A stretch of 55,831 nucleotides of DNA from Phoronis australis (lineage: Eukaryota; Animalia; Phoronida): contig NMRA01000255.1 of assembly GCA_002633005.1 (NCBI GenBank), positions 1-55,831 of the forward strand, written 5' to 3'. Position numbers and translations under genes: made by a program. Below the pieces are notes generated by a model. The model was not told the DNA's origin and searched no databases. It saw only the letters and a program-made list of their open reading frames with translations. Shown here piece by piece: positions 11,472 through 55,831 of the stretch. Positions within the stretch are counted from its first letter, which is position 1. Every line of letters begins with the position of its first letter.

Positions 11472-11549
11472 TCAAAGAAGTCCCTGTCGCTTTAAATCAT
11501 CAAAAGTCTTCTTGTTGACAACATTTCCAACAGAGTCTTCATATTCCTC
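11472..11549 (-). CDS. SF3A3: SF3A3 exon 15 (78 nt including TGA)
   Basis: tttcag|[25 protein letters not shown]. Confidence 0.96.
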   Translation of the reverse strand, partial: EEYEDSVGNVVNKKTFDDLKRQGLL

Positions 11550-23500: not shown

Positions 23501-23785
23501 TTTAGAAACAATAAATTTAAGACAGAATCAATTATTCTCAAGTATCAAAGCAACTAGTAACTCATTTAATCGAGATTTTGACAAGAATGTGAAAACCATA
23601 CAGCTAATTTCAAAAAGGTTTTTAACGACTCATGTAGAGCTACTTACATCTAGCAACTGTTTTAGTCTGTGGTCTGAATTGATCTTTTCTCTGTGCTGGA
23701 AATACATAAAGAAAATACTTCACATACAATACTCATACTCATTAAGGAAAATCATGCAATTGCTAGCAATCTTTGCAGGATTATA

Positions 23786-26800: not shown

Positions 26801-29800
26801 TCGTTTAGCGATTAATAAGGTTGTCATTTTCACTTTGGCTGTCTTAATACCATAAAAAGAAGAAGCACATCAGGGCTTGGAATGACCAATGACAAAAAAC
26901 GCGGAAACTTTTACGGCCCAAAACATGCGCGCTACTCAGCCTTGAAATGGTCGATGTGAACCTTTCCCCGACAAAAATCGGGAAGACTAAAAAAGAAAAA
27001 AAAAACGTTACCACCATCAGTAGCATGCGTCTGCGTCCTTTTAGCTCGTCCGTCCGCTCCCAACCCACACATTTTTGGCTGCAGAGCCGTAGTATTTGTC
27101 GCCGCGGTTTACAATAACACGAGATGCCATTGAAAATCCCACCACGCTATCCCAGATGCCCTGGCAATGTTGACAATTTACGTTCCTCCAAAACATAAAG
27201 AGCAACTTCCGCTTTTCGAGGTGAACGTCGTCTGCAACGCCACGGTAAGAAGGGAATTTGCCGTGGAAATTTTATATCAAATTCGATTTTTTTTACGCGG
27301 AAATATAACAAAATGCGCGGAAAATTCCAAGCCCTGGCACATCTCAGTCTAAATCATGATTGCCTGCCGGGACCGCTTGCACGCTAACGGTGCCGCAGTG
27401 CGATATCAGGGATATTGTCGTGGATATTTGGGAAATGTAATAAGGACATTTTATGTGAAAAATAAACATTTTTGTCCACCACAAAGTTTGGTAAGTTGAT
27501 CGCTTAAGAATTAGTAGAAACACCGTTGTTTTGTGAAATTTTATCACCTGTTAAGCAGTGGTCTGAAACTTTTTTTTATAAACCTCACAAATCATTGAAA
27601 TGTAGAGTACGTACCCCTGTGTAATGTACGTACCCCTGTGCAGTGTATGTACCTTCAACCTCTATGCTATAAAGTATTGCCCACAAGTATGTTAACTTTA
27701 CATACTGCTGTTCTCATGAACAATACCGATATTTCCAAAATGCATCCAGTCTGACCCCCCCAACCGGTACCATTTTTTACTTTTTACAAGTGGAACACTG
27801 GGCCTAGCATTGCTTTAACTATTTTGACCAACTGGTGAATGTATTGAAAACTAGGCAAATAGCACCAACAAAGTTTTTTAAAAAAGTAGTTATTTGTCAT
27901 TTTCTTTTTGTAAGGATCATATTGCAAGGGAGGAAGTTCTCAATATACTTTGTTAAGATATGCAATGTATCATCATCTAGAACAACTTGATCAGCATGGT
28001 AATAACTTTTCTTACTTTAGTATGTAATACTTCTTCAATTTGATAAATAACTTGTTAAATTAAAAGCTACCTTATGAATTTTTGCATGGTAGAAGTTGGC
28101 TTTGACCACAAGTTGTAGTGTATGTTATGTACCCTTTTGTACAACTGTGATGCATTAGGCCATAAAATTTTGTTCGGTGGTTCTTGTGCAAAAATATTTT
28201 AGATTAAAAACCTGGAATGAAGGTACTTTGAAATAACCCAGCTTTTACAGTTATATGACAACCATCATTTGTCACCAAAAGTGGCCACCGAATATGCCGG
28301 ACCTTGATTGTGATTTGCCCGCAAATCCAAATGTTATTTGGTGTTAACCTTATTGTTGAACCGTCAACGCTGCACGTAGTAACATAGATTTGATATTTTA
28401 GCCAGGCTTAAGTGTAATTTGTAAATAATCTCTCAGCATACAGAAGATTAAGACATGACGTAGTATAACTTCTAAGACAAAGTCACTAAAAAGTCATCAC
28501 CTCTGTTGGCCCGAACCAGAGGCGATTCAGAGGCTATAGGCGCTCTGTACGCCGGAAGCTTTTCGGCAAATTATGCCTCGCAACGACTAAACCATCAAAG
28601 TCACGTTGTTATAAATACCTTTTGCACATAGAGGAACACCTTAGGAGGTTGTCAATGTGTTTAATTCCTTCCAACTCGAACAAATACTCCCGTTATGAAA
28701 CCTTTTCTTCGAGCAGTCCCTATTTCAGTTCCCAAAATCGTGAAATCAACATTTTCATTTTTTAACCAGGCCGAAGGTCAGAAGTTGCGGACCTACCGGC
28801 GAACTTTGAAAGCTGAAGTTCCCGCCCTTTACGTACGTGCTGCCGGGAACCAGCCGTGCATTTGCCGTGTTGTTAAACATTAAAATGTCAAATATGTGCA
28901 CAAAGACTATTAAATGTCATATCAACAGCATTTATTTTTATCAAATACAAACAATAATTCATTGAAATACAATCAGTTTCAAGTAACGCCAATTAAAGAC
29001 AAGTATAAGTGGTAGCATTTTGGAAACGAACATTTGACTGACAAGACCGCAATGGCTCACCTTTGGCCTATTTAAAGATTGAGGTCATGAANNNNNNNNN
29101 CAGGGCTCAACACTAACGGTTGCCCGATTGCCCGTGTACATGTAGATTTTGCGTTGGGCAAGTGGAATTTGAAAAATACTTGCCCGATGGGCAAGTTAAA
29201 AAGCTAGCCGCATAGGTAAGTAGATCCTAAGATTGTCTGCTCGACATTTGCTCCAAAGTAACGAACCCCGACACAAGCCTAAAAACCGTCGAAAAAGCCC
29301 CTGTGGCCGTCAAAGAAACTCCCGTCTTCGAATGAGCACCGAAAGGAAAATAGAACGAGTGTGATGCAGCGTGCACAGATGACGCTCGCGGTCAAATCCT
29401 TTCGATTCTCTGAACGTGCCCTGCAGTTTCTGAATAAGTTGTCACGTGATACTACTGATCGTCTGCACTCTGGCAAAACGTCTAAACATGGAAGCCGTCC
29501 AGTCCTGGACGGCATTGGTTTAGTTGCTAAAAACGAGTTCAGGAAGAATCAACGCAATAATATGAAACGAAAAGAGTGCGGGGATGGGTTCCGTCATGGG
29601 AAATTAGGTTTTCTGGCCTGCGAGACAGTGAACAAGGGATGACGTTTGATTTTTGCTGGCGTTTACCCATGTACAGCTGGAAGCACCGCGTTCGTCAGCG
29701 GATGTAAGTCATACAGATAAGCGCAAAAGCTAAAAAGTGAATGATGGATGGCATATTTTCTACACTATACAGCAGTTTAAAAGGCCTGCTATTTATTCAG

Positions 29801-35975: not shown

Positions 35976-36361
35976 CCAACGTCCCAACAGCTTCGATGTA
36001 CTGGGATATGTAGGTCGAATTATGGAAAAAGAAAAAAGTCAAATTAACGTGAGCAGCACAATTAACATACCAAAGCAACCCTCACGCAACGCCGAAAAAA
36101 CTGTAGTCGAGCACGTGAGTTCCTGTGCATAGCTAAACTTGACGAATACGGACAACACTGAGCAGAATGCAGACGAAGAGATGGTGCAAGCAACTTAGTC
36201 GCCATTTCGAGCATGGTCGTATGACACGCTTCAAGTTTTCGGCGAGAAAATTGCTTTCAGAAGACATCGCCATGTGCCTGGCAAAAGAGTTCCAGCGTAA
36301 CAAAATATGGCCTGAAAATCTTTTGAACAAGTGCACGACCGTCAACGTACCCATTTTCCAT
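35976..36361 (-). pseudogene. Truncated, disabled duplicate of the 5' part of the gustatory-receptor-like gene
   Basis: Near-identical to 47917-48301. It has one extra base near 36270 (frameshift), TGG>TAG at 36133-36135, and homology stops at 35976. Confidence 0.9.
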
Positions 36362-36369
36362 GGTCTTAA

Positions 36370-36605
36370 AGAGTTCCCACCATGACCCTGTGTCTCAAAA
36401 AGGAATTTTATTATTACATCTTAACAGATTTAATAGCCTTTAGTACACCTGTTGCTATGAAACAATCTAAAAATTTTAAAAATATATTTTTCTGTTACCG
36501 AGTTTGTACGCAATGGGTGGAAGACCGCCTCAGCCGTTGTTGTTTTACCAGTGCGATACTGAGGAGTCGTGAAGAAAGTCCGCGTGGAGCCGTCTTTTTN
36601 GGGGG

Positions 36606-36636
<31 letters not shown>

Positions 36637-37113
36637 CCCACTTACCCATGATTGTGCGCCGAACAAGAGTCTGGAGTGTCAGTGTGGAACATGAGATTCA
36701 GTTTGGCGTAAGCCACACTTTGATCGGAACATTTCAAAGAATCGTGTTTCGACCACACACATAAGCGGCGTTACAATGAAGGACTCACCACCAAGTAAGT
36801 GCATTTGCAAATTTTGTAAATAACGAACAAACTGCTTCCATTCTAGGGCGAGTGATGCCGGCCGAGATCGAGTGCTACTACAAGTAGGCTTATGCATATT
36901 GTGTTTAGACTGTGCTCATTCCATCACGGCCAACCGTCTTCCACCCATTGCATCATTTGGCGGGAAACTTAGAAATAAGTAATTTTTCTTCAAAATTAAA
37001 AAAGTTGCCACTATTTGGCATAAAAAGTGCCTATTTAGCAAGATTTTATGGTATTCGCTTCATATTAGCTAACTGAAACCTGAAAAAGTAAGAAAATGCA
37101 TGGTGGGAACGCT
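36370..37113. mobile_element. Kolobok-like non-autonomous DNA transposon
   Basis: TTAA target duplication (36366-36369 / 37114-37117) and TIR AG(A/C)GTTCCCACCATG. The empty site cTTAAagaaatc is seen in copy B at 48306. Confidence 0.85.
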
Positions 37114-40100
37114 TTAAAGAAATCCAATATTACCTAACACAGTTCAGGCTGACAGACGAAAAATCTTCGTTCTCTATTTATTGGCTTTTTGCAATCTCAT
37201 TTCAAATCGTGAACGCTTTCACACATTAATTAAGGCAACGTTTAATCGATAGGAAATTTGTTGCTATTGATATACCAATCAAGAACAGGTAAACCAACAA
37301 TGGACCAATAACAGGAGGACAGCCATGTCTGTCCAGAGTCAAATGTTTTTAAATGATCCTTGTTTTATGGATCTTGAGGGCCGGCATTTTCATGGCCACA
37401 TGAACGTTTATTAAGTTACAGCACACTCATGTCAGCAGAATCACGATAGAGCTAATGGCACTAAGACAATTGAATAACACGTTGTATTGTATATAACGTT
37501 GGCTTCATGGTTAATGGAAGCAAAGTGCGTTGAAAAATGTCCACTATTTGAGTTGCAAATAATGACGTGAAGTTTTAGTCTAGCGGTTATTGCCATCACT
37601 GAGTCAATACTGTCGCAAGCTGATTTTTTTGTCTCCTGGCCGTAAAAGGCTTTTTGATCGATATAGGGAAGATGACTCAGCAAAATTTCTCAGATTTTGT
37701 GGTCACGTTTCGAAACAAATTAGGGATGCGTTCCTTTACCGCAAGAATCTATCGAGTGAGCTAGGGTAGTGGTGAGCTTCGCTTTCAATGCATGGGGATA
37801 TCTCACAAATGCTTGCGTGTTGTTGGGTTTTCGAGAAGACCAACGCTACCGTAGCTCCCAGTAGATCTTTATTTTTCGCGACGTAGAAACCCCACTGGGT
37901 GGAGCTTGCATTGATGACCACTTGAAGCCAGAACCACTAAGAGAAGACGAACAACTTTGTAGTCAAATCAGCGATATTTCGTGAGACTTCATACAGCATG
38001 AAGTCGCCTGAGTTGTGGATGTTCAAATTTCAAAGTTTAAATTCATAAAATGTGAGGGATGCTCTAAGCTTGCACTTACAATAGGAAATCAAGAGCATGT
38101 ATCTTAAGTCTCGTTTAGGCATCAACTTTTGGCCCAGCGCAACTGACACGGAGCAAATTGACCCGTGTCAAGCGGCCGTTTACACTCACTAACCGTGACA
38201 AGAAGGAAATTAAAGGCTGGAGAGACTGGAACGCACATGCGCAGGTTCACAAATGACGAGAGTTGCAGAGATAAAGAACCCGTACGTAGGTCATTGCACA
38301 AACGCAGTAGAGATGATTCTTTCCGCCTTGGTCCAATTTCGCGTTTAGACTTATAATTGACACGACGCAAGATGTTCGGGCGCAATTTGCTCTATCTCAC
38401 CAACGGGTGGCAAAAAATTGTCACCGCGATGTCAATTTGCTCCATGTCAGTAAATTTACACACTGGAACAACTTGTTCCGTGTCATTTGACCTGTGTCAA
38501 CTTTGTAAGTGTAAACGGCACTTTATTGTTGATAACGTTACATACATGTAAACCATTCGCCGGGTGTCGCTTCCAGTCACGCAAATCACCACAGGAAATA
38601 TTTTAAAGTTCGTTGTAGGAATCAGTGGTGTCTACTGGCACGCGACACGTTATTGAATAAGCCAAACTTCTTCGTCTAGTTGCCGGTATAAGAGTGGAGA
38701 ACGCAATGTTGATTATGTAATCTTTTTGCTGGAATAGTATTAGGAGAACAAAATTAGTCTGACTGCACTAGGAGTCGAGCCTTGAACATTTTTTAGATTT
38801 CAAGATGTTTCTCCTAACCCGATGTATGATATCCTGAAGGAAAGTTTACAATAAAAACCATTGCAGGGTTAACATATTGACAACTTTAGTATACTGGATG
38901 TTTTTAGGCTCAAAACACTTTTTCGAGACCGCAATTTACTGCTATTTAGAGCACATAGCAAGCAAGAATTGGTTGGTCATCGGTCCGAAGGGCTGATAAT
39001 CCGAGGTGGAATTCCCTTTAGCAATATTTCGAAGGGCATATAGCGAGAAGGCTCAATACTGGTGAGACCAGCGACTGTTTGCATTTGGTTTACTTATTCA
39101 TCAAGACCATTTTTCATACTTTCGTGAGTTTGTAGTTTTTGGATTTACATGTAATTCCAGCCAACAGGTGTCAATAAGAAATGACGGATCCCACAAATCT
39201 CAGAGTACTTAGGCATGCGCATGCATCAGGGCTGCATACCGTTGCAAAATACAAGATCACGCAAGTCTTTGTGAGACATAGTCAAGCATTAAGACCGAAG
39301 CACGTGATCACAAAGCAAATCAATTTGAAATAGATTACTGCCACCCAAAGAGGGGGACGCCAAATTGAAAATAATGCGGATCAAAATTATGAGGGTTAGG
39401 CTTATAGTAAAACCAGGGATGAAATGAGGTTGGGGCGAATCGGTGTGTTGCATCTAAACCCTTCAGACTACAAGCCTATAAGACTATAGGCCCTTCCTAC
39501 TGCAGAACTACTAAATTTTGCACTGACAGTGTCTTTGTTTTTTTAAATCGAGTCGGTGGTGCAGTGTTTCTTTATGTGGTTACATTTCAGACCAGAAAAA
39601 GCCCACCTGATACGACCAGAACTGCCCTTGTGAAACTTCTTCCTTCAAGTCATGTTTATGCAGGTCCATGACATTTTCATGGTCAAACAGTGTGATTTGT
39701 GTATTGCCACGGAGGAGAGGAGTTGGACAGTTACCCGCCTGATTCATGCAGAAAATGAAAATTTCAATAAATTAAAATTCGGCATGGCTGCTTCTAATGA
39801 TAAATTACGGGGAAACAGAAAAAGAATGAACAGCGTAAAAAAGAAATCAATGTCAGTAAATCAAAAAAAATATTGATGTGAACTTTTCACATGGAGAATG
39901 TGAAATTTTCCAACTTCCCGAAAAAAATCACAGTGTTTTCGTACAGCATCAAAACACACATAATAAACTACAAATTATGGGAGACTGAACAAAAAATCCA
40001 AAAATCGAACGGAATAGGATGGCCAAAATGTTTTGGAAAATGCTAAAACCAAAGACTTCAGTTTGTGCAAATTCACAAGCCAAAAGTTGTCGCAACTAAA

Positions 40101-41198
40101 CGCTTGAAACATTTTGTGCTTGAAGGGCCTAAAAAAAAATTCATCTTGAGACTTTTGACAATTTGTTCAGGGAAGACTGTTTGTGATCCAACAGTGTGCC
40201 GTCAACATGCATATCCACATCAGCTTCTAATTAAAAGTCACACATTTCAACTGTGTACCACCTTGAACCGGCGAGGAAATATACTGTAGATCAGAAGCAT
40301 TTTAAGATTGGTCTGCACGCCACCTGTTGGGTACATCACGTGACCTAATAAACGCAAGTCTGAAAAGATTTTTGCCTCCGTGAATTATGTTCATTTACTG
40401 TACGCGAACTTGGAATTCTGCCTAATTTCAAGATCACTTGGAACTAAATATTCATTTGGGCAATCAGGGGATTTTTTTATTCAGTGTAAAAAGTTTTTGT
40501 TATTATTGGCTTAATGATTACACATTTTCTCCTTGTGTCAAAGAATCGAAGGAACATGTGAATTGTTAAATCAATTATTCTTTGGTGAATTAGATCGCCA
40601 ATTGTTGAAAAAGGGTTGGTTAAAATTTACATTATTTTATCACCATGTAATTTGATTGAGCGCAGTGCAAATCAAATCTCTTTATTTATAGTCAGTTTGA
40701 CAAAATAGACAAACACTAGCCAAAGGCTAATATCACTGACCGTAGATTATAACATAAAACGTAAACAATAAAATAATGAAAAACCAAGTACATGACAAAA
40801 TGAGAAAACACATATTGACGAAATATCATGAAAGTATGGCACACACGCATAGGCTACACACACGCACACATACACACGAGATTTAAAATCTGCATACACT
40901 GCGCCTGCATGATGGTTCTGTCCAAGATTTAATAAAACTCTTAAAAAGTTTATAATCCATGAACTTGTACTCACTGGGATGAGAGCTCCAAAGTTTTGCG
41001 CCGTTCACTGAAAAGGAGTTTAAACCTTGGCGCAAGATTTCAAGTTCACGCACAGCACATTAGCTCACGTGATGACCAACAGGTGGCGCGCGGACCAGAC
41101 CTAAAAACTTTGGTACCACCTCATTGTTTAACACTAAATTGTAAAGTTCTGTGACAGACAGAACATGTGATTATTTAATTTTTACATCGCTTCCAGAC

Positions 41199-42088
41199 AT
41201 GAAAACGAGAATTTGCCTCATGACCATGTTGTTCTTGTTAGGGATTCAGTTTCTGCACGCGTCGACACTGAAATCGGAAAGAGGGAAGCTGTTTGTTACC
41301 TAAAAACTATGAGTTTTCGTAAACAAGTTTTTTTATGGGTGGTTAGAACGTATTCATTGTTCACGAACTCATGTCTTTTTAGTTCGCAAAATTCTGAAAT
41401 GAATGTCAGTTTGTCCATACGGAAATTTCAATCAGAGAGCACACTTACATAGATTTACCCAGACATATGCAACAACTTACACTGGTGCAACTTGCTCTGC
41501 GCTGGTCACACTAGTTCAACTAGCGTCCACACAGCCCTCAAACCTAGCGATAACTCGTTCCAGGACTGAGTGAATTGTCTGTGTGTGGACGGTACTGTAA
41601 TGGGTCAAAGTGGACACAATTGGTCAAAATGGACTAAATCGATAAATGGACTGGATAAAACAACGTACCGTCGGATTTTCAGATCCAGAGCCCCGTTTTT
41701 AGGGTCACTACTCAAGTTCACGTCGTGTTTGAAGGTGTACGCTTGTCCTAGTCAAAGTCACTGGTTCTTGGGTCAGTAATTCATACTCATTTGAATGCAT
41801 TCAACCCAAGATCAGTGCTTCATACATTTCACATTCAAGCTTGCTTTGCAGACCATGTATCAAGTGAATCGCGGCGTTTGTTTCGAGTTGGAAAGAAGTC
41901 GTCGAGCACGCATGATTTGTGATAATAACGAATCGTGCCGGCAGTGGTGCATAAACCAAGGACGTGCTAGTGGGCGCTGCTATAAAGCCAAGTGTTACTG
42001 CAGAGGGTGTGTAGTCAAATTCTTTACCCGGTATTTTAACTGCAGTTCATTTCTTCTTCTTTGTTCTTTACCAGCCTCTTTCACGTGA
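41199..42088 (+). pseudogene. Probably disabled duplicate of the defensin-like gene
   Basis: The signal exon at 41199-41283 has its donor changed from GT to GG (41284-41285). Exon 2 starts at 41852 and lacks 2 nt (tttgcagag>tttcgag), which frameshifts the mature domain away from the signal peptide. Confidence 0.75.
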
Positions 42089-43751
42089 AACCGAAAATCA
42101 TGCTGTTTTAAATCTACCAAACAGGATTTTGATATAATATATTTAAAAAGCTGATTTCCGAGGCATGATGACATTGGCTTCAACCTTCATTTAGAACAGA
42201 GAAGCGTCCTGTGAGTGAACTTAGACCCGACACGCATTTGTTGGGTCTGTCAGCCCTAGGATTTTCTCAAGCGTCACAGTGTTGTACTCGTTAATGCTCT
42301 AGGCGTTTTCGGTAGCGTAATGTTGTTGAGACTACTGGCTTACTTATTTGTCGCTCTGTCTTGAAGTAAAGTTTGTTTGTTTGATTTTTATTGCGTAACC
42401 ATATTAAAAAGCGCCTATCCAGGCGCTGTTTGTGGGTTGACAGCGCAAAATCGACATTTTTTATTGAGAAAACGCATTTTTACAAAAGAGAATCAGTTTT
42501 CTGGAACGTTTCATGTGCGTCAATAACGCAAACCAGACCTACTCTTTTTTCACAACGCAGGCCGCTATTTCAAGTGAGATAGCGCATTTTTGATAAGATT
42601 CCGTCACTTGCAGAGAACGGTTTTTGAGCATCGGCGATGCAAGCCTAATATTTCATATTGAGAAAGCGTATCTTTGAAAAGAAGAAGCAACACTTGTCGG
42701 GAACGTTCTTTATGCGTTGACAACGCACATTTCTTACTGGGAAAGCTAGATTTTCAAAAATTAATCGCGCATTCCGTTTGAGTCTTATTGACCTGCATTT
42801 ATACTGCTATCAAATGACCGAGCCAGCAATGTTGATACTGCGACCGCTCATCGAAATAATGTACACCCACGAAATTGGGACACTAGCCGAAGCCCAAATT
42901 TGGAGGTCCGCCAAATTCGGACACCACAAAAATGATGTTTCGCGAGATTCGTCTAAGAATGATTTTTTTCTATGGGAATTAATTTTCAGTGTCCGAAAAA
43001 CGCGCGACTTAACCGTAACCGTGTTCGTTAATTATTGATACGCACTGCTGTTGACGTAACGATAAGCCTATAGGTAAATACAAATGTACATGTTGGTACT
43101 CAGCTTAAGTTTTTAATTGCTGTGAACATTCGCTGGTGTAACGGGTCGCCAATGAACTGCTGGGACTGGGGGTCCATGATATTGTAAGATATGGCTCTGC
43201 ACACAAATATGTTTATACAACTGACAGTTATGTGTGGGAACGTTAAGACAAAGATATTAGACTTTACTTCTCAATGTCTTCAGCATAAACTGAAAGATTA
43301 CACGCCGAAATGAACCGCCAATGTCCACACTTTGATTGTGTATTTGCGACCAAGCAACATTTTAACCATTTACCCCCTATCTAAATAGAACTCTGTGTAT
43401 TGGTTGCGTTGGATTGGGTTGATTCGGTCATCATTACGTAATCTTTGACAGTCTGGACTGCCGTGATTACGTACACGCCATCCAAGATTTTTTGTTGAAT
43501 CTGATTGGTCCTATTGCTGGTACCCGGATGGCATGTTTCGAGAAATCCCTTCAAATCGCCGTGAAGTGGATTAGTTCGTTCCAAATAGGGGTGTGAATTT
43601 TGCAGTTCGTGGCTTCGTCGTTGAACTTGAAGTCAGCGAGTAGAAGACCAAATGACCCCCTAATTCTCGGCTTATTTTGCACAAAAATTATTGAAGAAAT
43701 TGTCATTTTTCTATTTGTCATACCTTGCTTGGTAACATTAGAAGAAGTTAT

Positions 43752-44742: not shown

Positions 44743-45312
44743 CTGAGAATGAAAAACAATAGCTTACTGATTATGCAAATGGGTCATGGCATCAAATAGC
44801 TGCAAAGTCCACTCGAAGGTTGTGTCGACTTAGGATGAAAGCTTTGGCGACAGGGAGGCCGTGAAAAATTGGAGCGTGAATGGAAAATTGCAGCTAAAAC
44901 AACTATCACCCCGGCCAAGATTTTCAATAGCTTAGAAAATCATGAATATTGTTTTGGGATTGTAGAAAGCACGAAAAATTACGCCAAGCCTATTATTTGG
45001 TGCCATGCAGTACCGAACCGGCGTTTTAGGCCACATGGTCTAAAGAAAGGTGATGATGGTTCCTTTAATAAACGCATTTAAATAAATACGCATACTAAAC
45101 AAATGTTTTGGTTAGACAGGCAGACCTCCCCCTAATCTCTCTTTTCCCTCTCCGTCGGTCACTGTATAGACTTGTAATATCTATTTGGTAAGCGAAGTCG
45201 TATGTATACATTTACGCAAATATCTTTATCATCAGCTTTCCGCAAAACTTGAATAGTATGCTGTCAGATCTATACAATCAAGCTCTTTTCGAAGCGACAG
45301 TAGGTAAATTAC

Positions 45313-45474
45313 CGTTACGAGCAGTGGCTTGTCGACAAGAAAATAGCCCCACGCAGTGACGCCGATTGGAGGCCCAGATAACTTGTTGACCATGAGCTGA
45401 AGTTCCATTACTTGTGGTAACGTCATGTCCGCTTCCTCGTCTACTTTATGAAGGGTAGAGAGAGTTTCATGTGC
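45313..45474 (-). CDS. Gustatory-receptor-like protein, exon 2 (54 codons)
   Basis: tttcag|AHETLSTLHK...QLMVNKLSGPPIGVTAWGYFLVDKPLLVT|gtaatt (phase 0), the typical GR/GRL 'T-x-x-G-hF-x-h-D' segment. Confidence 0.9.
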
Positions 45475-47320
45475 CTGAAACGTTAAATCAAGCACAACTT
45501 CGTGTAAAATTTTCTAGGAAGGCAGAGAGACACTTGAAAACGTTGTATTTTTCACAAACGTCTTCATAAAGAGATTTTTTAAAATGGCCATCGGAAAATT
45601 GATTGTGGTACCAGACAATCGCCAGCCTCTATAAGGTTGACTAGCTCCTTTCATTATATGCTTATTTGGAATCAAGTCAGTCTAATAAATCACTGCACAT
45701 GATTGAACCTTACATAATCTTCATTTACTAAATACTCATGTGTATTGAATCTTCTGTACATTTTACAAATCCTATTTTTCTGGCTAGAGTGTTGCTCAAA
45801 ATACAATTAAAATATTTGCCACAAACTTCATTGTCGTTTGTTGTCATGTATTTCTTTCGACAACGCTTACTTTTGGCAACAACAACTAGTTTGTTCTTGA
45901 CAACAATATTCAATTATACACGATATTTGTTGATGTCCTGTTGACTTTGCGTCATGGATAACAACCATCCTAGCAGCTATAAACCAACCTTACGTCTCAA
46001 AAACTAACTTTTGATCTATACCAACCATACCGTTATGAAATCGGTCTCATTTCAGAACTCTAGCAGTTGTTATTACTTGAGACCAGCCTCTTGTTCAGTA
46101 ACCCCAGGACCTCGCTAAAAAGCAAGACTTCGCGAGATTACATGGCTATCGCCGTGTATTTTGAATGAGAACATGTGACTTTATCTAGATTTTAGCTAGG
46201 TCCTAGCGTAGGTCCTAGCGTTACGTTTGTCTGAACGCACGCCAGGCTCTACAAGTCGGCATGTCACGGCGGGTCATTTCATGAGCCGAGCATGGTCTCA
46301 GGGAATAAAGAACTATCAGTTTTTTTGCAAAGCTTAAAAAGGATGCCACAATGCGTCGGCATAACCCTTCTGTGCTCTGACGCCACGTGCCAAGAGCGCA
46401 ATTTTGAAACGCGAAGCGTCGCGAGTTGCAGACACCTGTAATGACCGAAGGCCACGAAGTTTATGTCACCGATGAGTGCGATCAATCGCCGCAGAGTCCA
46501 AATACAGGAACCAGCACAGCTTCACGGACTATGGGATTTATGCAGATCAAACAATGGATAAATTCCTCTCGCAACTGAGTTCTAATTCAATCTCAGATTG
46601 GTCCAGAATACTCGTCAACTAATTACGACAATTTTTGGAAGGAGTATTCAATTACAATAAATTATTACAGAAAGAAAGCCGACGAGGAATGATTTGGACC
46701 GCGAACGTCTAAAACCCACCTTCCGTAAAGAATCTAACTTTTGTTTTAAACCACTTGCCGCTTTAAATATGGAGCTAACGTGTTCCTTACTAGGATTACT
46801 GAGCTTAAAAATAACTAACAAATTGTTATTGGTGGAGAACTGTCTCCATAAATTGGTTTGTCCCGGTGTGTCATTTTGATTGGCGAGCATGTTCTCAAGC
46901 ACTACCGACTTGTCAGTTCTTCCATAGCCCGGAAAGCATTCAATCCTCACACGAGTAAGGAACAATTTGAGTCCAGTTTTATGATACAAGATGATTCTCC
47001 CAAAGTTTTGTTTCTAATGTCTTTCGCAATACAGGCGCTCTTACGCAGATTGTACAACACGTAGGACCCTGTCAAACCGTCGTAGTTCTTGATACGTTCT
47101 AAGTAATTTGAACACAGTGGGGTGGAACTAAAATGGATCTGAATAAACGTTGGAACACATGTTACAAGTTGAGATTCTTGGACAGGAGCAGATCTTGTTG
47201 TGTGACAGGTACAAACTCGATTATCTCGATTTTTGTTCCACTAGTAATATATTGCTCCTAGAGCTTCTTTGTTGTAACTCTGAAATGAATGTAATGGTAA
47301 ACGGAATGTTTATAAATTAC

Positions 47321-48301
47321 CTTTTCATTTACGGACGCACCAAGCAGGATGATTGTAGCAACGCATCCAACACCATATGACAACCAAAAGATGTTTGTGC
47401 CGATAAAGAACGAACTGGATCGGAGACAAGAAAAGTTGACGAAGCAGTATATGATTATTAACACCAAGACCGTGTTGATGACGATGTTTATCGCAATGTA
47501 TAAGGAGAACACGTGGTCCAATATCTCCACCAGCTTGCAAACTTGTCCGTGCAGTTTCCGGTAATATGCAACATTTGGGAAAAGCTTTTTTTCTTTCACC
47601 ACCCTCTCTAGTTCACAAATGAACTCGTCCATGCACATGTTGGTCAAAGAAACCATAAGTATGAATAAAATGAAAGGGGCAAACCAGGCGGCGCTGCTGT
47701 ATGAATTTGGCATGATGTAAATGACCTTCAGTACCATCAATTCCGGATCGGCGTGCTTAAACGGAGCATAAAACACATCGTAGATCGGGGTAATCATTTG
47801 AACTAACGTAGAGAACAGAATATTCGCCAAATACATGAAAATAAATACAACGACTGCCAACTGGCATTTTCGCTGCACTCGTAGCAATGACGTCCGTCCC
47901 AGTCTCCAGCGAGATACCAACGTCCCAACAGCTTCGATGTACTGGGATATGTAGGTCGAATTATGGAAAAAGAAAAAAGTCAAAATAACGTGAGCAGCAC
48001 AATTAACATACCAAAGCAACCCACACGCAACGCCGAAAAAACTATAGTCGAGCACGTGAGTTCCCGTCCATAGCCAAACTTGACGAATGACGACAACACT
48101 GAGCAGAATGCAGACGAAGAGATGGTGAAAGCAACTTAGTCGCCATTTCGAGCATGGTCGTATGACACGCTTCAAGTTTTCGGCGTGAAAACTGCTTTCA
48201 GAAGGCATCGAATGTGCCTGGCCAAAGAGTTCCAGTGTAACGAAATATGGCCTGAAAACCTTTTGAACAAGTGCACGACCGTCAACATACCCATTTTCCA
48301 T
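47321..48301 (-). CDS. Gustatory-receptor-like (7tm_7/7TMIC) protein, exon 1 (327 codons)
   Basis: Long open frame with multiple hydrophobic helices and YRKLHGQVCKLVEILDHVFS. It ends ASVNEK|gtaatt (phase 0). Confidence 0.9.
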
Positions 48302-49825
48302 GGTCTTAAAGAAATCGAGTGTTACCTAACTCAGTTCAGACTGACAGACGAAAAATCTTCGTTCTCTATTTATTGACTTTTTGCAATCTCATTTCAAATC
48401 TTGAACGCTTTCACACATTAATTAAGGCAACGTTTAATCGATAGGAAATTTGTTGCTATTGATATACCAATCAAGAATAGGTAAACCAACAATGGACCAA
48501 TAACGGTAGGACAGCCATATGCATGCCTGTTCAGAGTCAAATGTTAGAGGTTTTAAATGATCCTTGTTTTATGGATCTTGAGGGCCGGCACTTTCATGGC
48601 CACATGAACCTTTGCTAAGTTACAGCACACTCAACATGTCAACAGAATCACGATAGAGCTAATGGCACTAATACAATTGAAAAACACATTGTAGTGTATA
48701 TAACGTTGGCTGCATGTCTAATGGAAGCAAAGTGCGTGTGAAGATTCTTGAAACCTGTCCACTATTTGAGTTGCAAATAATGACGTGAAGTTTTAGTCTA
48801 GCAGTTATCGAAATCACTGAGTCAATACTGTCGCACGCGGATTTTTGTCTCCTTGCCGTAAAAGGCTTTTTGATCGATATAGGGAAGATGACTCAGCAAA
48901 ATTTCTCAGATTTTGTGGTACGTTTCGAAACAAATTTGGGATGCGTTCCTTTACAGCAAGAATCTATCGAGTGAGCTAGCGTAGTGGCGAGCTTCGCTTT
49001 CAATGCATGGGGATATCTCACAAATGCTTGCGTGTTCTTGGGTTTTCGCGAAGTCCAACGCTACCCGGAGCTCCCAGAAGATCTGTATTTTTCGCGACGC
49101 AGAACCCCCACTGGGTAGAGCTTGGGCTGATAACCGCTTGAAGCCAGACCCACTAAGAGAAGACGAATAACTTTGTAGTCCAAATCAGCGATAATTCGTG
49201 AGACTTCATGCAGCATAAAGTCGCCCGAGTTGTGGATGTTGTGAAATTTCAAAGTTTAAATTCATAAAATGTGAGAGATGCTCTAAGCTTGCATTTACAA
49301 TACGAATGTGTCTGTAAGAGCATGCATCTTAAGTCCCGTTTAGACATCAACTTTTGGCCCGGCGCAACTGACATGGAGCAAATTGACCCGTGTCAAGCGG
49401 CCGTTTACACACACAACTCACCAACTAGACGGAAATTAAAGGGTGAAGAGACTGGAACGCACATGCGCAGTTGCAGAGACAAAGAACCCGTACGTAGGTC
49501 ATTGCACAAGCGTAGTCTCCTACATGCAGAATGGTGAATGTTGGCCAATTCCCCTTTTGTCCACTGACGTCACAAGCATACTGGCGCCCCCAGTGGAGGC
49601 CCTGAGAACTCGTAAACAAGCATGCTGGCGACTGTGGTTAAAGTATTTTTTATGATTTTTCCAGAGTCGCTATGTTTTAGAGTGTTTTTTAAATAATGTT
49701 GCATGTCATACCTCTCACAAAATTAATATTGTTCCAATAAATTAAGAAAATTGGAATATTCATTCTCGCGATCCTGCAACACCATCCAAATGTTCTTCTG
49801 TGACACACGGNTGCACAAGCGTAGT

Positions 49826-50412
49826 CTCGCTGGTTCCCTGCGTGCCGCTAGGTGGGGCGGTAGCTGCGCCAGCACGCAGGTATCACTTAATTTTCCTCGG
49901 TAAATTTTTTTACACCGGCGTTTCTGATTGGCTAGTCAACAGGCAGCGCTTTACGCAAACAAACTGGTATGACTGATGGACTAAAGTGTAAACGGGGTCT
50001 GTTGTGCAGAAAAATCTGGTGCTTAAAATTTATGTTCAGGAAATGTGAAGCCTAGAAATTGTAATTGCGCCTTTTCGGGATGCATCATTCTACTGTCGAT
50101 GACTTTTGTTTACGACAGTGTCCTGTATTCATACAGTATGAATAACACACCGGTTAAATCGGCCAGATGTGTTTATTGTACATGTATGTGCTTCAAGCAC
50201 GCGGCTATTAAACATCACTGCAGAAACGAAATAGTTTCTGCGACGCCATAAGCTTGCATGACAAGGCTAAAAATCGTTCACAGCCCGCCATTTTTTCACG
50301 TTGTTGTAAAGCTAACCAATGACTGCCGAGGTTACATCGACCAATGCTAAAGTGCGTGCCACTGCGTGATACCTGCGTGCTGGCTGGGCTAAGCACGCGG
50401 GGAACCAGCGAG
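49826..50412. mobile_element. Non-autonomous TIR element with a 9-bp target duplication (MULE- or AcademH-like)
   Basis: AAGCGTAGT flanks both ends (49817-49825 / 50413-50421). TIR is CTCGCTGGTTCCC(T/C)GCGTGC with an inner inverted GCCAGCACGCAGGTATCAC. Absent from copy A. Confidence 0.75.
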
Positions 50413-53400
50413 AAGCGTAGTCTCCTACATAGACGCACGAGTATCCGTGACGTCATCTTGTGAGGCCCGGGAACCATGTTATGAACAAGCGCAGTAGAGA
50501 TGATCCTTTCCGCTTTGCTCCAGTTTCGCGTTTAGACGTATAATTGACACGGCGCAAGATGTTCGGGCGCAAATTGCTCTATCTCACAAACGGGTGGGAA
50601 AAATTTGTCACCGCGGTGTCAATTTGCTCCGTGTCAGTCCGTTTACACACTGGAACAACTTGTTCGGTGTCAGCTGATCCGTGTCAACTAAGTAAGTGTA
50701 AACGGCACTTTACTGTTGATAACGCTTCATCAATCATTCGCCGGGTGTCGCTGCCAGACACGCAAATCATCACAGGAAATGTTTTAGAGTTCGCTGTAGG
50801 AATCAGTGGTGCCTACTGGCACGCGACACGTTATTGAATAAGCCAAACTACTTCGTCTAGTTGCCGGTATAATATTGGAGAACGCAATGTTGATTATGTA
50901 ATCTTTTTGCTGGAATAGTATCAGGAGAACAAAATTAGCCTGATTGTACTATGTCCAACCTTGAAAGATGACGGTTTCTCCTAACCCGATGTATGAAGGA
51001 AAGTTTACACTAAAACCCATTGCAGGGTTAACATATTGGTAACTTTAGTATACTGGATGTTTCTAGGCTCAGAACACTTTTTCGAGACCGCGATTTACTG
51101 CTATTTAGAGCACATAGCAAGCAAGAATTGGTTGGCCATCGGTCCGAAGGGCTGATAATCTGAGGTGGAATTCCCTTTAGCAATATTTCGAAGGGCATAT
51201 AGCGAGAAGGCTCAATATTGCTGAGAGCAGCGACTGTTTGCAATTGGTTTACTTATTCATCGTGACCATGTTTCATACTTTCGTGAGTTTGTAGTTTTTG
51301 GCTTTACATGTATTTCCAGCCAACAGGTGTCAATAAGAAATGACTGATCCCACAAATCTCAGAGTACTTTGGCATGCGCATGCATCAGGGCTGCATTCCG
51401 TTGCAAAATACAAGATCACGCAAGTCTTTGTGAGACATAGTCAAGCATTAAGACCGAAGCACGTGATCACATAAGTTTTTCTCGCGAGTGTCGTGTATCT
51501 ACAAAACGCATTCTCGGTTCCGCTATTCGCTTGAAGATCAAATGCATCCCCATTAAAAATTAACCTTTGATTCAGACCGCTTATCACTATTTATCACCTT
51601 TAGTCTTTTAACTGATCTAAATCAGACGTTTTGGAAAATGTTAAAACATTTGAAGCTTATTGGGAAATAGCCCTGATGTACACCAATCTAGTACCATGTG
51701 GACTTAAGCTGAAGTTTCATATTCATGTGCTTTGATCAAACATCAATCGTTTTTTAACTATTCCTCAGCTTGCGCAAATATACTAAAATATAAATCGGCC
51801 ATAATTAAAAGTTGTTACTGTGACTACAGTTCATCAAATGGAATTAATTTGGTATATAAACTGACTATATACCAGTATATAACATTCGATCTGTCTACAT
51901 TCTACGGCCTTTCTATCGAGATACTAGCTCGGAGGTTTCTGCATTTGACTGGAAATCAAGATATAATTTCTTGACATTCTTGCGGTAGGTAAAGTTGCCA
52001 TCTACTTTTTGTTCACCAAAGCAAATCAATTTGAAATAGGTTACTGCCACTCACAGAGGGGAACGCCAAGTTAAAAATAATGCGGATAAAAATTATGAGG
52101 GTTAAACTTATAGTACGAACAGGGATAAAATGAGGTTGGGGCGAATCGGTGTGTTGCGTTAAAACCTTTCAGACTATAAGCCTATAAGACTATTGACCCT
52201 TCCTACTGTAGAACTACAAAATTTTGCAGTGACAGTGTGTTTGCTTTTTTAAATTGAGTCGGTGGTGCAGGGTTTCTTTATGTGGTTACATTTCAGACAA
52301 GAAAATCCACCTGAGACGAACAGAACTGCCCTTGTGGAACTTCTTTCCTCAAGTCATGTTTATGCAGGTCCATGACATTTTCATGGTCAAACAGTGTGAT
52401 TTGGGTATTGCCACGGAGGAGAGGAGTTGGACTGTTACCCGCCTGATTCATGCAGAAAATGAAAATTTTAATAAGTTAAAATTCGGCATGGCTGCTTCTA
52501 ATGATAAATTACGGGGATCAGAAAAAGAATGAACAGCGTAAAAAAGAAATCAATGTAAATCAAAACAAATTATTGATGAGAACTTTTCAAATGGAGAATG
52601 TGAAATTTTCAAACTGCCCGAAAAAACACACCATCTGTTTTCGTACAGCATCAAAACACACATACTAAACTACAAATTATGGGAGACTGAACAAAAAATC
52701 CAAAAATCGAAAGGTATAGGATGGCATAAAAGTTTTGGAAAATGCTAAAACCAAAGACGTCAGTTTGTGCGAATTCACACTGAAGCCAAAAGTTGTCGCA
52801 ACTAAACGCTTGAAACATTTTGTGCTTCGAGGGCCTGAAAAAATTTCATCTTGAGACTTACGACAATTTGTTCAGGGAAGACTGTTTGTGATCCAACAGA
52901 GTGCCGTCAACATGCATATCCACATCAAATTCTAATTAAAAGCCACACATTTCAACTGTGTACCACCTTGAACCGACGAGGAAATATCATTTTAAGTTTG
53001 GTCTGCACGCCACCTGTTGGGCACATCACGTGACCAAATAAACATAAATCTGAAAAGCTTTTTGCCTCCGTGAATTATGTTCATTTGCTGTACGCGAACT
53101 TGGAATCCTGCTTAATCTCAAGATCACTTGGAACTGAATATTTATTTGGGCAATCAGGGGAATTTTTTATTCAGTGTAAAAGTTTTTTTGTTATTATTGG
53201 CTTAATGATTACCCATTTTCTCCATGTGTCAAAGAATCGAAGGAACATGTGAATTGTTAAATCAATTATTCTTTGGTGAATTAGATCGCCAATAGTTGAA
53301 AAAGGGTTGGTTAAAATTTACATTATTTTATCAAAATGTAATTTGATTTAGTGCAGTGCAAATCAAATCTCCTTATTTATAGTCAGTTTGACAAAATAGA

Positions 53401-53870
53401 CAAACACTACCAAAAGGCTAATATCACTGACCGTAGATAATAACATAAAACGTAAATAATAAATTAATGAAAAACCAAACACATGACAAAATGATAAAAC
53501 ACATATTGACGAAATATCACGAAAGTATGGCACACACGCATACACACACGCACACATATACACCAGATAACTGCATACACTGGTGGTTCTGTCCAAGATT
53601 TAATAAAACTCTTAAAAATTTATAATCCATGACTCATTGGGAAGAGAGTTCCAAAGTTTTGCGCCGTACACTGACAAAGAGTTTAAACGTTGGCGAAAGA
53701 TTTCAAGTTCACGCTCAGCACATTAGCTCACGTGATGACCAACAGGTGGCGCGCGGACCAAACCTAAAAAGTTTGGTACCACCTCCTTCATTGTTTAACA
53801 CTTACATCATTGTAAAGTTCTGTGACAGACAGAACATGGTGACTATTTAATTTTTACATCACTTGCAGAC

Positions 53871-53955
53871 ATGAAAACGACAATTTGCCTCGTGACCATG
53901 CTGTTCTTGTTAGGGATTCAGTTTCTGCACGCGTCGACACTGAACTCGGAAAGAG
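53871..53955 (+). CDS. Defensin-like precursor, signal-peptide exon
   Basis: acttgcag|ac ATG: MKTTICLVTMLFLLGIQFLHASTLNSER G|gtaagc. It has a basic N-terminus, a hydrophobic core and an L-H-A cleavage-like site. The phase-1 donor fits the next exon. Confidence 0.8.
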
Positions 53956-54589
53956 GTAAGCTGTTCGTTACCTAAGCTATGAGTTTTCGTAAACAAGTTT
54001 TTATGGGTGATTAGAACGTATTCACTGTTCACGAATGAATGTCTTTTTCGTTCGCAAAATTATGAAATGAATGTCAGTTTGTCCATACGGAAATTTCAAT
54101 CAGAGAGCACACTTACATAGATTTACCTAGACATGCAACAACTTGCACTGGTGCAACTTGCTCTGCGCTGGTCACACTAGTTAATTCAAATTGCGTCCAC
54201 ACAGCCCTCAAGCTAGTGCAACTTGCTTTGCTTGTCACACTAGTTTAAATAGCGTCCACACAGCCCTCACACCTAGCGATAACTCGTTCCAGGACTGAGT
54301 GAATTGTCTGTGTGGACGGTAGGCCTACTGTAATGGGTCAAAGAGTGGACACAGTTGGTCAAAATCAAAAAATAGATAAATGGACATAATGGGTGAAACA
54401 ACGTGCCGTCGGATTTTCAGATACAGAGCCCCGTTTTTAGGGTCACTACTCAAGTTCGCATCGTGATTGAAGGTGTACGCTTGTCCTAGTCAAAGTCACT
54501 GGTTCTTGGGTCAGTAATTCGTACTCATTTGAATGCATTCAACCCAAGATCAGTGCTTCATACATTTCACATTCAAGCTTGCTTTGCAG

Positions 54590-54828
54590 ACGATGTATCA
54601 AGTGAATCGCGCCGTTGGTTTGCAGAGTTGGAAAGAAGTCGTCGAGCACGCATGACTTGTGATAATAACGAATCGTGCAGGCAGTGGTGCATAAACCAAG
54701 GACGTGCTAGTGGGCGCTGCTATAAAGCCAAGTGTTACTGCAGAGGGTGTGTAATCAAATTCTATACCCGGTATTTTAACTGCAATTCATTTCTTCTTCT
54801 ATGTTCTTTACCTGCCGCTTTTCCGTGA
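54590..54828 (+). CDS. Defensin-like precursor, propeptide plus CS-alpha/beta mature domain (3' end uncertain: read-through to 54828 or splicing at 54746)
   Basis: ctttgcag|(D)DVSSESRRWFAELERSRR-ARMTCDNNESCRQWCINQGRASGRCYKAKCYCRG. Spacing is C-x5-C-x3-C-x7-GxC-x4-C-x-C after a furin-type RSRR site. Confidence 0.8.
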
Positions 54829-55831
54829 AACCGAAAATTATGTTTTTTTAAATCTACCAAACAGGATTTTGATATAATGTATTTAAAAAGCTGGTTTCCG
54901 AGGCATGATGACATTGGCTTCAACCTTCATTTAGAACTGAGAAACGTCCTGTGACTGAACTTAGACCAGTCACGTTTTTGTTGGGTCTGTCAGCCCTAGG
55001 ATTTTGTGAAGTGTTACAGTGTTGTACTCGTAAATGCTCTAGGCGTTTTTGGTAGCGTTATGTTGTTGAGACCAGTGGCTTAGTTATTTGTCGCTCTGTT
55101 TTGAAATAAAGTTTGTTTGTTTGCTTGTTGTGTTGTGTTGGCACGACTGCAGACTACATTTTTGGATGATTGATATAAAATTTACATACGACGGACATGA
55201 AAGTTACCAAGAGGTTGAAGCCAAATGTTTGTGATCTAAATGGGAAACAGAATGATATCGTGGAGGACATTTCTTGTTTTCAAGGTTCTCGAAACCAAAC
55301 CTCAGACTCTTTCTGAAAACCAGTGTATGAACTAAGGAATATTAGAAGTTTACTCGGCCCGGGTGATGCCTACGTCGGGCACGACAGTTGTAGGGGCGTT
55401 TTTTAGGCTCACAACAGTCGTCTCTGAGTTCAATGGTAACATGATCGTTCGTGTGTTACATACCTAATATTTGTTTATTTTAAAAGATTCTTATGGTTAA
55501 ATGACCACATTATCTGTAAAACGCGTTTTGTGGATTTAACTACTGTATCTCACATCGTTGAGCAGTGGAGTGGGATCAGCATCAGTCAGATACTCACACT
55601 GATGAATCACGTGGCTTCAAGATTACTCCGGTATGGATGTTACAATTTGTGTTATTGGTTCTTGGTTACATTTTCAAAATTACATAGGTGGATTTAGAGG
55701 GGGGGGGGACCCAGGGGGCCCACCCCCCCTTGGCTGCCGCAAGGAAAGTGAAACAGCAATAGCGTAAAGCTTGAACGGGAAATGTTGAGTGAGTAACCAG
55801 GATCGGTAGCGGAGAAGTGGGGGGGGGGGGG

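What the first reader, a model, noticed from the sequence alone, without database searches (positions are those of the whole stretch)
53871..54877. Hidden spliced gene for a secreted CS-alpha/beta defensin-like peptide with an unusual prepro architecture
Seen: an 85-nt signal exon missing from the ORF track splices in phase 1 to give MKTTICLVTMLFLLGIQFLHA / STLNSERDDVSSESRRWFAELERSRR / ARMTCDNNESCRQWCINQGRASGRCYKAKCYCRG. The core is cationic (5 R + 2 K versus D + E, net +5) and carries CxxxC, GxC (gamma-core) and CxC. Known: this spacing defines CS-alpha/beta defensins and scorpion-toxin-like peptides. An N-terminal propeptide ending in a furin site resembles insect defensins, whereas mussel mytilins, myticins and MGD carry C-terminal extensions. 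Inference: this is a candidate new antimicrobial or toxin-like peptide that gene predictors would easily miss. I do not recognise it as a named peptide.
Basis: partly seen in the sequence, partly recalled or inferred. Interest (0 to 1): 0.85.

Follow-up and report, generated by a model that had tools for sequence, protein, structure and literature searches.

The report
Hidden four-exon invertebrate defensin gene
A worm- or shellfish-type animal carries a small gene, transcribed and spliced in RNA reads, for a six-cysteine peptide predicted to fold like a defensin and likely used against microbes; it is a new member of a well-known family, not a new kind of molecule.

Summary
The gene is real and expressed. 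The 53955/54590 splice is seen in 12 reads of two RNA runs and in one contig. Reads show that the peptide ends in Gly-stop, with six cysteines. Two corrections: a non-coding first exon ends at 51984, and the last exon is not found in the window, so the end at 54877 is unsupported. The 33-residue core (net +5) is predicted at pLDDT 91 as a helix plus hairpin. It just reaches Pfam's Gamma-thionin cut-off, and drosomycin is its best sequence match among solved structures. It lacks the scorpion K-C-X-N signature. No close relative was found. The architecture is not unusual: 6 of 13 listed molluscan six-cysteine defensins also have an N-terminal propeptide ending in a dibasic site. The host is a lophotrochozoan of unresolved phylum. 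A decayed second copy lies at 41197-42006. Best reading: a furin-released, probably amidated host-defence peptide (0.65); activity is untested. The scan had no earlier defensin note in this genome.

The parts
51853..51859 (+). TATA-like element, candidate core promoter (others at 51789 and 51876); inferred
   Evidence: motif scan; lies about 40-50 nt upstream of the inferred start of exon 1
51900..51984 (+). Exon 1, non-coding 5' leader (start approximate)
   Evidence: X1 contig has 83 loose letters before 53868; a 21-nt piece of them matches 51963-51983 with 2 mismatches, chance mean 0.01; GT donor at 51985-86. One contig only
51985..53868 (+). Intron 1 (GT..AG, 1884 nt)
53869..53955 (+). Exon 2: ATG 53871, predicted 21-aa signal peptide (53871-53933), start of propeptide
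   Evidence: RNA depth and joint; translation; hydropathy peak 2.96 over 9 residues; SignalP not available
53956..54589 (+). Intron 2, phase 1, 634 nt, GT..AG
   Evidence: joint in 8 + 4 reads and one contig
54590..54746 (+). Exon 3: rest of the 26-aa propeptide, processing site, mature core, first two bases of the Gly codon
   Evidence: donor 54747 scores 7 against 3 for 54749 on a simple U1 match, so the end at 54746 is inferred (54748 fits the linear reads equally)
54634..54651 (+). Predicted furin-type sites: R-S-R-R ending 54645 (33-aa product) or R-R-A-R ending 54651 (31-aa product)
   Evidence: sequence; the second aligns with the R-K-R/F-T-C start in P0002; furin consensus recalled
54646..54744 (+). 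Mature six-cysteine CS-alpha/beta core, 33 aa, net +5, followed by a Gly (likely amide donor)
54747..55831 (+). Intron 3; the terminal exon (Gly completion, TAA, 3' UTR) is not found in the window
   Evidence: loose ends in the X1 contig (185 nt) and 4 X3 reads; 0 matches in window
41197..42006 (+). Decayed second copy (exon 2 and exon 3 equivalents): donor GT replaced by GG, 2-nt deletion in the propeptide, no exon 1 or promoter, no terminal exon
   Evidence: none of its private letters among the differences listed
35976..42389 (.). Duplicated block (89-95% identity by piece with 47917-55129) that holds the decayed copy; lacks the counterpart of 51471-52017
   Evidence: junctions

Best explanation
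This is a transcribed, spliced gene of a lophotrochozoan animal for an 81-residue precursor whose six-cysteine core is predicted to fold as a CS-alpha/beta (cis-) defensin and likely acts as a secreted antimicrobial peptide. Shown: transcription, the exon 2-3 splice, the Gly-stop end, the cysteine array and the charge. Predicted: signal peptide 1-21, and a helix (8-17) with a two-strand hairpin. Inferred: a furin-type convertase cuts after R-S-R-R (or R-R-A-R), the three disulfides pair C1-C4, C2-C5 and C3-C6, and the terminal Gly is turned into an Arg-amide. Also inferred: the cationic gamma-core (G-R-C-Y-K-A-K-C, +3) and helix bind anionic microbial surface lipids and damage the membrane. 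Sequence affinity leans towards the plant/drosomycin antifungal type, so fungi or yeasts are my first guess for the target, with Gram-positive bacteria second.
For: Splice joint in two raw-read runs and one contig, two studies. Gly-TAA end. AlphaFold single-sequence model, pLDDT 90.8, H8-17 E23-26 E29-32. All Foldseek rows shown are CS-alpha/beta-type peptides, top TMq 0.72-0.87, none at E<=0.001. Pfam Gamma-thionin 25.2 bits against a cut-off of 25.1 for the mature core and 27.6 for the exon, against 16.0 and 16.4 bits for two unrelated six-cysteine control domains. Drosomycin is the best PDB sequence match, 13 of 27 columns, E 0.004. The same signal-pro-dibasic-core layout occurs in molluscan and jellyfish-labelled defensins. 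Reads show amino-acid variants in the core (A1S and S22N in X1; T4I in 7 of 18 X3 reads) with all six cysteines unchanged among the listed differences.
Against: No activity, induction or tissue data. Tarr 2016 (PMC5116183) states that six-cysteine spacing cannot tell a toxin from an antimicrobial peptide. With the true 33-aa core, the top five Foldseek rows are scorpion K-channel-toxin-type peptides and drosomycin falls to rank 12; its first place came from a model that included the intronic seventh Cys. The Gamma-thionin score is only at the cut-off and n = 2 controls. Expression is low: 17 and 20 reads laid from about 12 million records in X2 and X3, and 0 in X4. The propeptide is net neutral (6 acidic, 6 basic), not the anionic shield of many AMP precursors. 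No strict kappa-B-like site lies within 600 nt upstream of exon 1; the nearest of 15 in the window is at 51175.
Confidence: 0.65

Rival explanations
1. The peptide is a defensive or predatory ion-channel toxin secreted in mucus or a gland, a recruit of the defensin scaffold parallel to scorpion short toxins.
For: Cys spacing x5-x3-x9-x4-x1 aligns without gaps to agitoxin 2. The top Foldseek rows are K-channel-toxin-type, TMq up to 0.87 for BeKm-1. Pfam Toxin_2 E 0.0036. A nemertean host is not rejected (p-AU 0.55), and an alpha-KTx/defensin/myticin-like family is reported in nemertean mucus (PMC10674772 section 2.5.6). PMC5004176 says the signature is important but not essential.
Against: The K-C-X-N signature is absent; the peptide has neither the Lys nor the Asn. 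Toxin_2 is 18 bits against a cut-off of 25.1, about the same as a moth control domain (17.7). Identity to the five top-ranked toxin-type structures is only 27-30%. Only one intact copy is seen in the window.
Confidence: 0.15
2. The peptide is a non-microbicidal secreted effector (immune signal, wound or nerve-repair factor, or enzyme inhibitor) built on the defensin fold.
For: CS-alpha/beta peptides have other roles: macins are neurotrophic (PMC6780910). An amidated C-terminus and multiple basic sites are typical of signalling peptides too (recalled). One of the three HMMER hits, P0003, is a tandem-domain moth protein resembling X-tox proteins, recalled as non-antimicrobial. Expression is low.
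Against: Net +5 charge, a cationic gamma-core and the drosomycin/plant-defensin affinity fit microbial membrane targets. Non-synonymous allelic variation is common in AMPs (recalled).
Confidence: 0.15
3. The locus is a transcribed but non-functional relic or a chance reading frame.
For: The neighbouring copy is decayed. One of three raw-read runs has no read.
Against: Open frame across a read-supported splice, intact cysteines in the read variants of three runs, a confident fold, and 0 motif hits in 100 simulations. The core differs from the second copy at 2 of 101 nt against 7.5% in non-coding DNA (p 0.016; p 0.27 if only the dead copy drifted).
Confidence: 0.04

Closest known systems
Drosomycin (PDB 1MYN) and plant defensins (Pfam PF00304); 'drosomycin-type antifungal peptides'
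   Same: Best PDB sequence match, 13 of 27 columns with 7 outside the Cys/Gly motif; the only Pfam family reached at its cut-off; same helix-hairpin core.
   Different: 33 aa and six Cys. No N-to-C terminal disulfide and no first beta-strand in the model. It has a 26-aa N-terminal propeptide. The host is a lophotrochozoan, whereas PMC9751787 restricts the family to plants and ecdysozoans.
Insect-type six-cysteine defensins of molluscs (M. coruscus arthropod-like defensin-1, Haliotis defensin, Pv-Def, Dpd) and the jellyfish-labelled P0002
   Same: Signal, N-terminal pro-piece, basic cleavage site, x-T-C-D start, six Cys; 17 of 43 identities with P0002.
   Different: Only 5 residues between Cys1 and Cys2 (8 in P0002, longer in the six molluscan rows); Pfam Defensin_2 13.8 bits against a cut-off of 20.4.
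Scorpion alpha-KTx short toxins (kaliotoxin, agitoxin 2, BmKTX, BeKm-1)
   Same: Gap-free Cys spacing with agitoxin 2 and the closest predicted backbone, rmsd about 1.1 A.
   Different: No K-C-X-N signature; Toxin_2 below cut-off; 26-30% identity for these rows.
Mussel MGD, mytilins, myticins
   Same: CS-alpha/beta fold, cationic core, lophotrochozoan host; mytilin genes also have four exons (PMC7168163).
   Different: Those have eight Cys, and mytilins have an anionic C-terminal extension; this has six Cys and stops at Gly.
[quoted passage not shown]
   Same: Small defensin/KTx-like secreted peptide in a non-molluscan lophotrochozoan, function open.
   Different: Sequences were not compared (supplement not read), so the relationship is unknown.

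Membership tests
CS-alpha/beta (cis-defensin) superfamily | Six-Cys array with CxxxC and CxC plus the third Cys pair | tested here: met
   Cys at 5, 11, 15, 25, 30, 32; definition in PMC5116183
CS-alpha/beta (cis-defensin) superfamily | Helix carrying CxxxC packed on a beta-hairpin carrying GxC and CxC | tested here: met
   Predicted only: H8-17, E23-26, E29-32, pLDDT 90.8; Foldseek probability 1.00 to CS-alpha/beta structures, best E 0.03
CS-alpha/beta (cis-defensin) superfamily | Disulfides C1-C4, C2-C5, C3-C6 | not testable with these tools
   Model coordinates are not returned; pairing is inferred from the positions of the Cys on helix and strands
CS-alpha/beta (cis-defensin) superfamily | Secreted precursor with signal peptide | tested here: met
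   Basic N-terminus, hydrophobic core (peak 2.96), small residue at -1; hydropathy only, SignalP not available
Classical insect-type defensins (PF01097) | N-terminal propeptide ending in a basic site before x-T-C | tested here: met
Classical insect-type defensins (PF01097) | Pfam Defensin_2 gathering score | tested here: not met
   13.8 bits against 20.4; the P0002 control domain scores 34.4
Plant/drosomycin-type antifungal defensins (PF00304, DTAFP) | Pfam Gamma-thionin gathering score | tested here: met
   25.2 against 25.1 for the mature core, marginal; 27.6 with the exon-3 pro part
Plant/drosomycin-type antifungal defensins (PF00304, DTAFP) | Fourth disulfide joining N- and C-termini | tested here: not met
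   Six Cys in the mRNA; cremycins lack it too, so this does not decide membership
Plant/drosomycin-type antifungal defensins (PF00304, DTAFP) | Three-stranded sheet with an N-terminal strand | tested here: not met
   Two strands in the model; 4 residues precede Cys1; three strands described for mehamycin
Plant/drosomycin-type antifungal defensins (PF00304, DTAFP) | Antifungal activity | not testable with these tools
   needs an assay
Scorpion alpha-KTx toxins | Short-toxin cysteine spacing and fold | tested here: met
Scorpion alpha-KTx toxins | K-C4-X-N toxin signature | tested here: not met
   Neither residue is present around the fourth Cys; signature defined in PMC5004176
Scorpion alpha-KTx toxins | Channel block and venom-gland expression | not testable with these tools
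   tissue of the runs is not given
Mussel MGD / mytilin / myticin | Eight cysteines | tested here: not met
   six
Mussel MGD / mytilin / myticin | Anionic C-terminal extension | tested here: not met
   Gly then TAA in the X1 contig and 4 X3 reads

The most novel reading that the evidence does not exclude
The peptide is a true drosomycin/plant-type antifungal defensin in a non-molluscan lophotrochozoan, trimmed of its first strand by a furin site. That would break the 'plants and ecdysozoans only' distribution on which the plant-to-ecdysozoan gene-transfer hypothesis rests, and it would be a six-cysteine short-loop defensin from a phylum where compiled lists show none.
Probability: 0.12. Interest if true: 0.62.

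Novelty: new member of a known kind. Interest (0 to 1): 0.33.

Why it matters
It is a verified example of a small host-defence gene that databases miss. No relative was found among 29-95 aa proteins, and only distant multi-domain hits turned up among 1.84 billion representatives. It offers a compact, cationic, 33-residue peptide that can be synthesised and assayed. In the 2023 lophotrochozoan AMP list, all 13 six-cysteine 'TID' defensins are molluscan; the CS-alpha/beta rows among 41 annelid entries are 6 macins; the brachiopod (4), phoronid (3) and bryozoan (2) rows are big defensins; and there is no nemertean row. If the host is not a mollusc, the gene fills a taxonomic gap. If its drosomycin affinity is ancestry rather than convergence, it bears on the origin of animal antifungal defensins. 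As a mechanism it is ordinary.

Tried and rejected
No whole genome is held, so paralogues elsewhere and exon 4 could not be searched. The ESM Atlas gave no result. The word-index protein search with exon 3 found no candidate (only 29-95 aa searched). HMMER over representatives gave 3 hits: P0002 and P0003 are tandem CS-alpha/beta proteins; P0004 is a Cys-free repeat match and was dropped. Three C-terminal models were rejected on reads: read-through with a seventh Cys, a terminal exon at 54865 (short or long frame), and a mussel-like extension. Early searches included the intronic seventh Cys; Pfam, PDB sequence search, folding and Foldseek were repeated on the true core, the others were not. 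VIA-align on the longer model gave best Z 5.7, below its noise note of 8. No inverted repeat flanks exons 2-3 to favour circularisation (best E 0.88 for reversed hits). Host phylum: an SF3A3 tree places the window in the lophotrochozoan clade (SH-aLRT 96), but AU tests reject neither Nemertea (p 0.55), Lingula (0.48) nor Mollusca (0.46), and no named phoronid row was available (the earlier tree used untrimmed pieces and did not finish its careful search). The neighbouring 7TM-like ORF gave no Pfam hit and no homologue. The paper on Lingula immunity (PMID 29278680) is not held and may list such defensins. No complex prediction was run because there is no partner claim.

Full report
Observation. 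The window is animal DNA (40% GC, an intron-rich SF3A3 gene at 11475-23695). An ATG at 53871 opens an 85-nt coding stretch that reads as a basic-hydrophobic signal peptide and ends at a GT donor at 53956. An AG acceptor at 54588-89 leads, in phase 1, into a frame with a propeptide, R-S-R-R, and a 33-residue six-cysteine core with spacing x5-x3-x9-x4-x1 and net charge +5. A six-frame motif scan finds only this locus and a duplicate. A slightly stricter motif had 0 hits in 100 simulated windows.

RNA evidence. Four runs were listed and all four were laid twice; about 18-19% of each raw-read run was read. The joint skipping 634 nt (GT..AG, equal to 53955/54590) is in 8 reads of X2 (6 starts), 4 reads of X3 (4 starts) and one contig of X1. 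X4 shows nothing on the exons, which is no test. X1 may be linked to the assembly; X2-X4 are a second study. The X1 contig carries 83 letters upstream of exon 2, and part of them match 51963-51983 next to a GT donor at 51985. There is thus a non-coding first exon with TATA-like elements upstream; this rests on one contig. At the 3' end the genomic frame would continue into a seventh Cys, but the X1 contig and 4 X3 reads leave the genome there and read Gly, then TAA. The precursor is therefore 81 aa (21 signal, 26 pro, 33 core, Gly). That this end came from the acceptor at 54863-64 is my inference. The better donor is 54747.

Variation and the second copy. Reads differ from the window at a few sites. 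A1S and S22N are in X1, T4I is in 7 of 18 X3 reads with a silent change in 7 of 17, and X2/X3 have W-to-L and a one-codon insertion in the propeptide. No cysteine changes among the listed differences. A block of 89-95% identity (35976-42389 against 47917-55129) holds a second copy at 41197-42006. It has GG in place of the GT donor and a 2-nt deletion, lacks the stretch with promoter and exon 1, and has no terminal exon. It shares four exon-3 letters with expressed alleles, but its private changes are not among the read differences. It looks like a decayed duplicate of a divergent allele; a mis-assembled null haplotype is not excluded.

What it resembles. For the true core, Pfam gives Gamma-thionin 25.2 bits (cut-off 25.1), Toxin_2 18, Toxin_3 14.2 and Defensin_2 13.8. 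Two unrelated six-cysteine domains score 16.0 and 16.4 on Gamma-thionin. Among solved structures the best sequence match is drosomycin (E 0.004, 13 of 27 columns), followed by scorpion K-channel toxins and a pea defensin. AlphaFold without an alignment gives pLDDT 90.8, helix 8-17 and strands 23-26 and 29-32. Foldseek ranks scorpion short-toxin-type peptides first, a tomato defensin sixth and drosomycin twelfth, with none at E<=0.001. No close homologue was found: 0 candidates in the word search and 3 distant hits in the HMMER search, two of them tandem defensin-type proteins labelled jellyfish and moth.

Host. SF3A3 homologues and a tree place the window among lophotrochozoans (SH-aLRT 96). 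It is not nested in the sampled gastropod, bivalve or nemertean groups, but AU tests reject none of Nemertea, Lingula or Mollusca as its group. The phylum is open.

How it most likely works. Shown: transcription, splicing, frame and end. Predicted: signal peptide and fold. Inferred from established knowledge of CS-alpha/beta precursors (recalled): secretion, cleavage by a furin-type convertase after R-S-R-R or R-R-A-R, three disulfides, and amidation from the terminal Gly. The cationic gamma-core and helix would then bind and damage microbial membranes. I put this at 0.65, an ion-channel toxin at 0.15, a non-microbicidal effector at 0.15 and a relic at 0.04. The toxin reading has the spacing and backbone but not the K-C-X-N signature.

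Comparison with the literature, and what I saw of each paper. PMC5116183 (abstract, passages, sections 5, 6 and 7 in part, 8): spacing cannot tell toxin from AMP, and typical defensins had not been reported from annelids. PMC10414684 (passages; S1 File part 1 of 8 and three term searches): 13 six-cysteine 'TID' rows, all molluscan, 6 of them with an N-terminal pro-piece ending KR/RR. The layout is therefore not unusual. PMC9751787 (passages, Introduction): drosomycin-type peptides are said to be limited to plants and ecdysozoans. PMC5004176 (passages): the toxin signature. PMC7168163, PMC6780910 and PMC7203481 (passages). PMC10674772 (passages, section 2.5.6): a KTx/defensin-like family in nemertean mucus; its supplementary sequences were not read and may bear on novelty. 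PMID 29278680 was not held. Listings of searches showed no report of this peptide or of a six-cysteine cis-defensin from phoronids or brachiopods; the library lacks most subscription journals.

Verdict. A real, expressed and apparently unrecorded gene, and a new member of the CS-alpha/beta defensin superfamily with an ordinary architecture. Its interest lies in the taxonomic gap and in the modest drosomycin/plant-defensin tilt. That tilt could be convergence within a 33-residue motif: the peptide lacks the first strand and the fourth disulfide of that family. Interest 0.33.

Noticed in passing
window 54746 joined to 53869: Three X3 reads (agreement 0.74, so perhaps two) run from the exon 3 donor straight into the start of exon 2. 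This could be a 244-nt back-spliced circle, read-through splicing between tandem copies, or an artefact. It was not listed as a joint, and no flanking inverted repeat was found.
   Followed up: partly
window 47258-48325 (-) and 45232-45513 (-): A hydrophobic multi-pass membrane ORF and a likely second exon resembling gustatory-receptor-like 7TM chemoreceptors (label recalled). No Pfam hit and no homologue at E<=1e-5 among 949 candidates. A truncated copy with two in-frame stops lies at 35976-36372.
   Followed up: partly
window 11475-23695 (-): SF3A3 (Prp9) splicing-factor gene, at least 14 exons; used here to place the host.
   Followed up: yes
window 54976-55197 (+): Depth 1-2 in X2 only, on the transcript strand, around an AATAAA at 55105: pre-mRNA, or a minor intronic 3' end. 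The duplicated block also ends here (55129).
   Followed up: no
window 54238-54294 and 53250-53420: Short dispersed repeats inside introns draw reads from elsewhere on both strands.
   Followed up: no
P0002 (EukProt, labelled Sanderia malayensis): A 443-aa protein of five tandem signal-pro-defensin units of insect type in a jellyfish data set. It may be fused tandem genes or contamination; an insect-type defensin in a cnidarian would merit a look.
   Followed up: no
window 26844-27146 (-): A frame beginning with a G-I-S-C-Y-C motif looked defensin-like at first, but it has no Pfam match and no full Cys array.
   Followed up: partly
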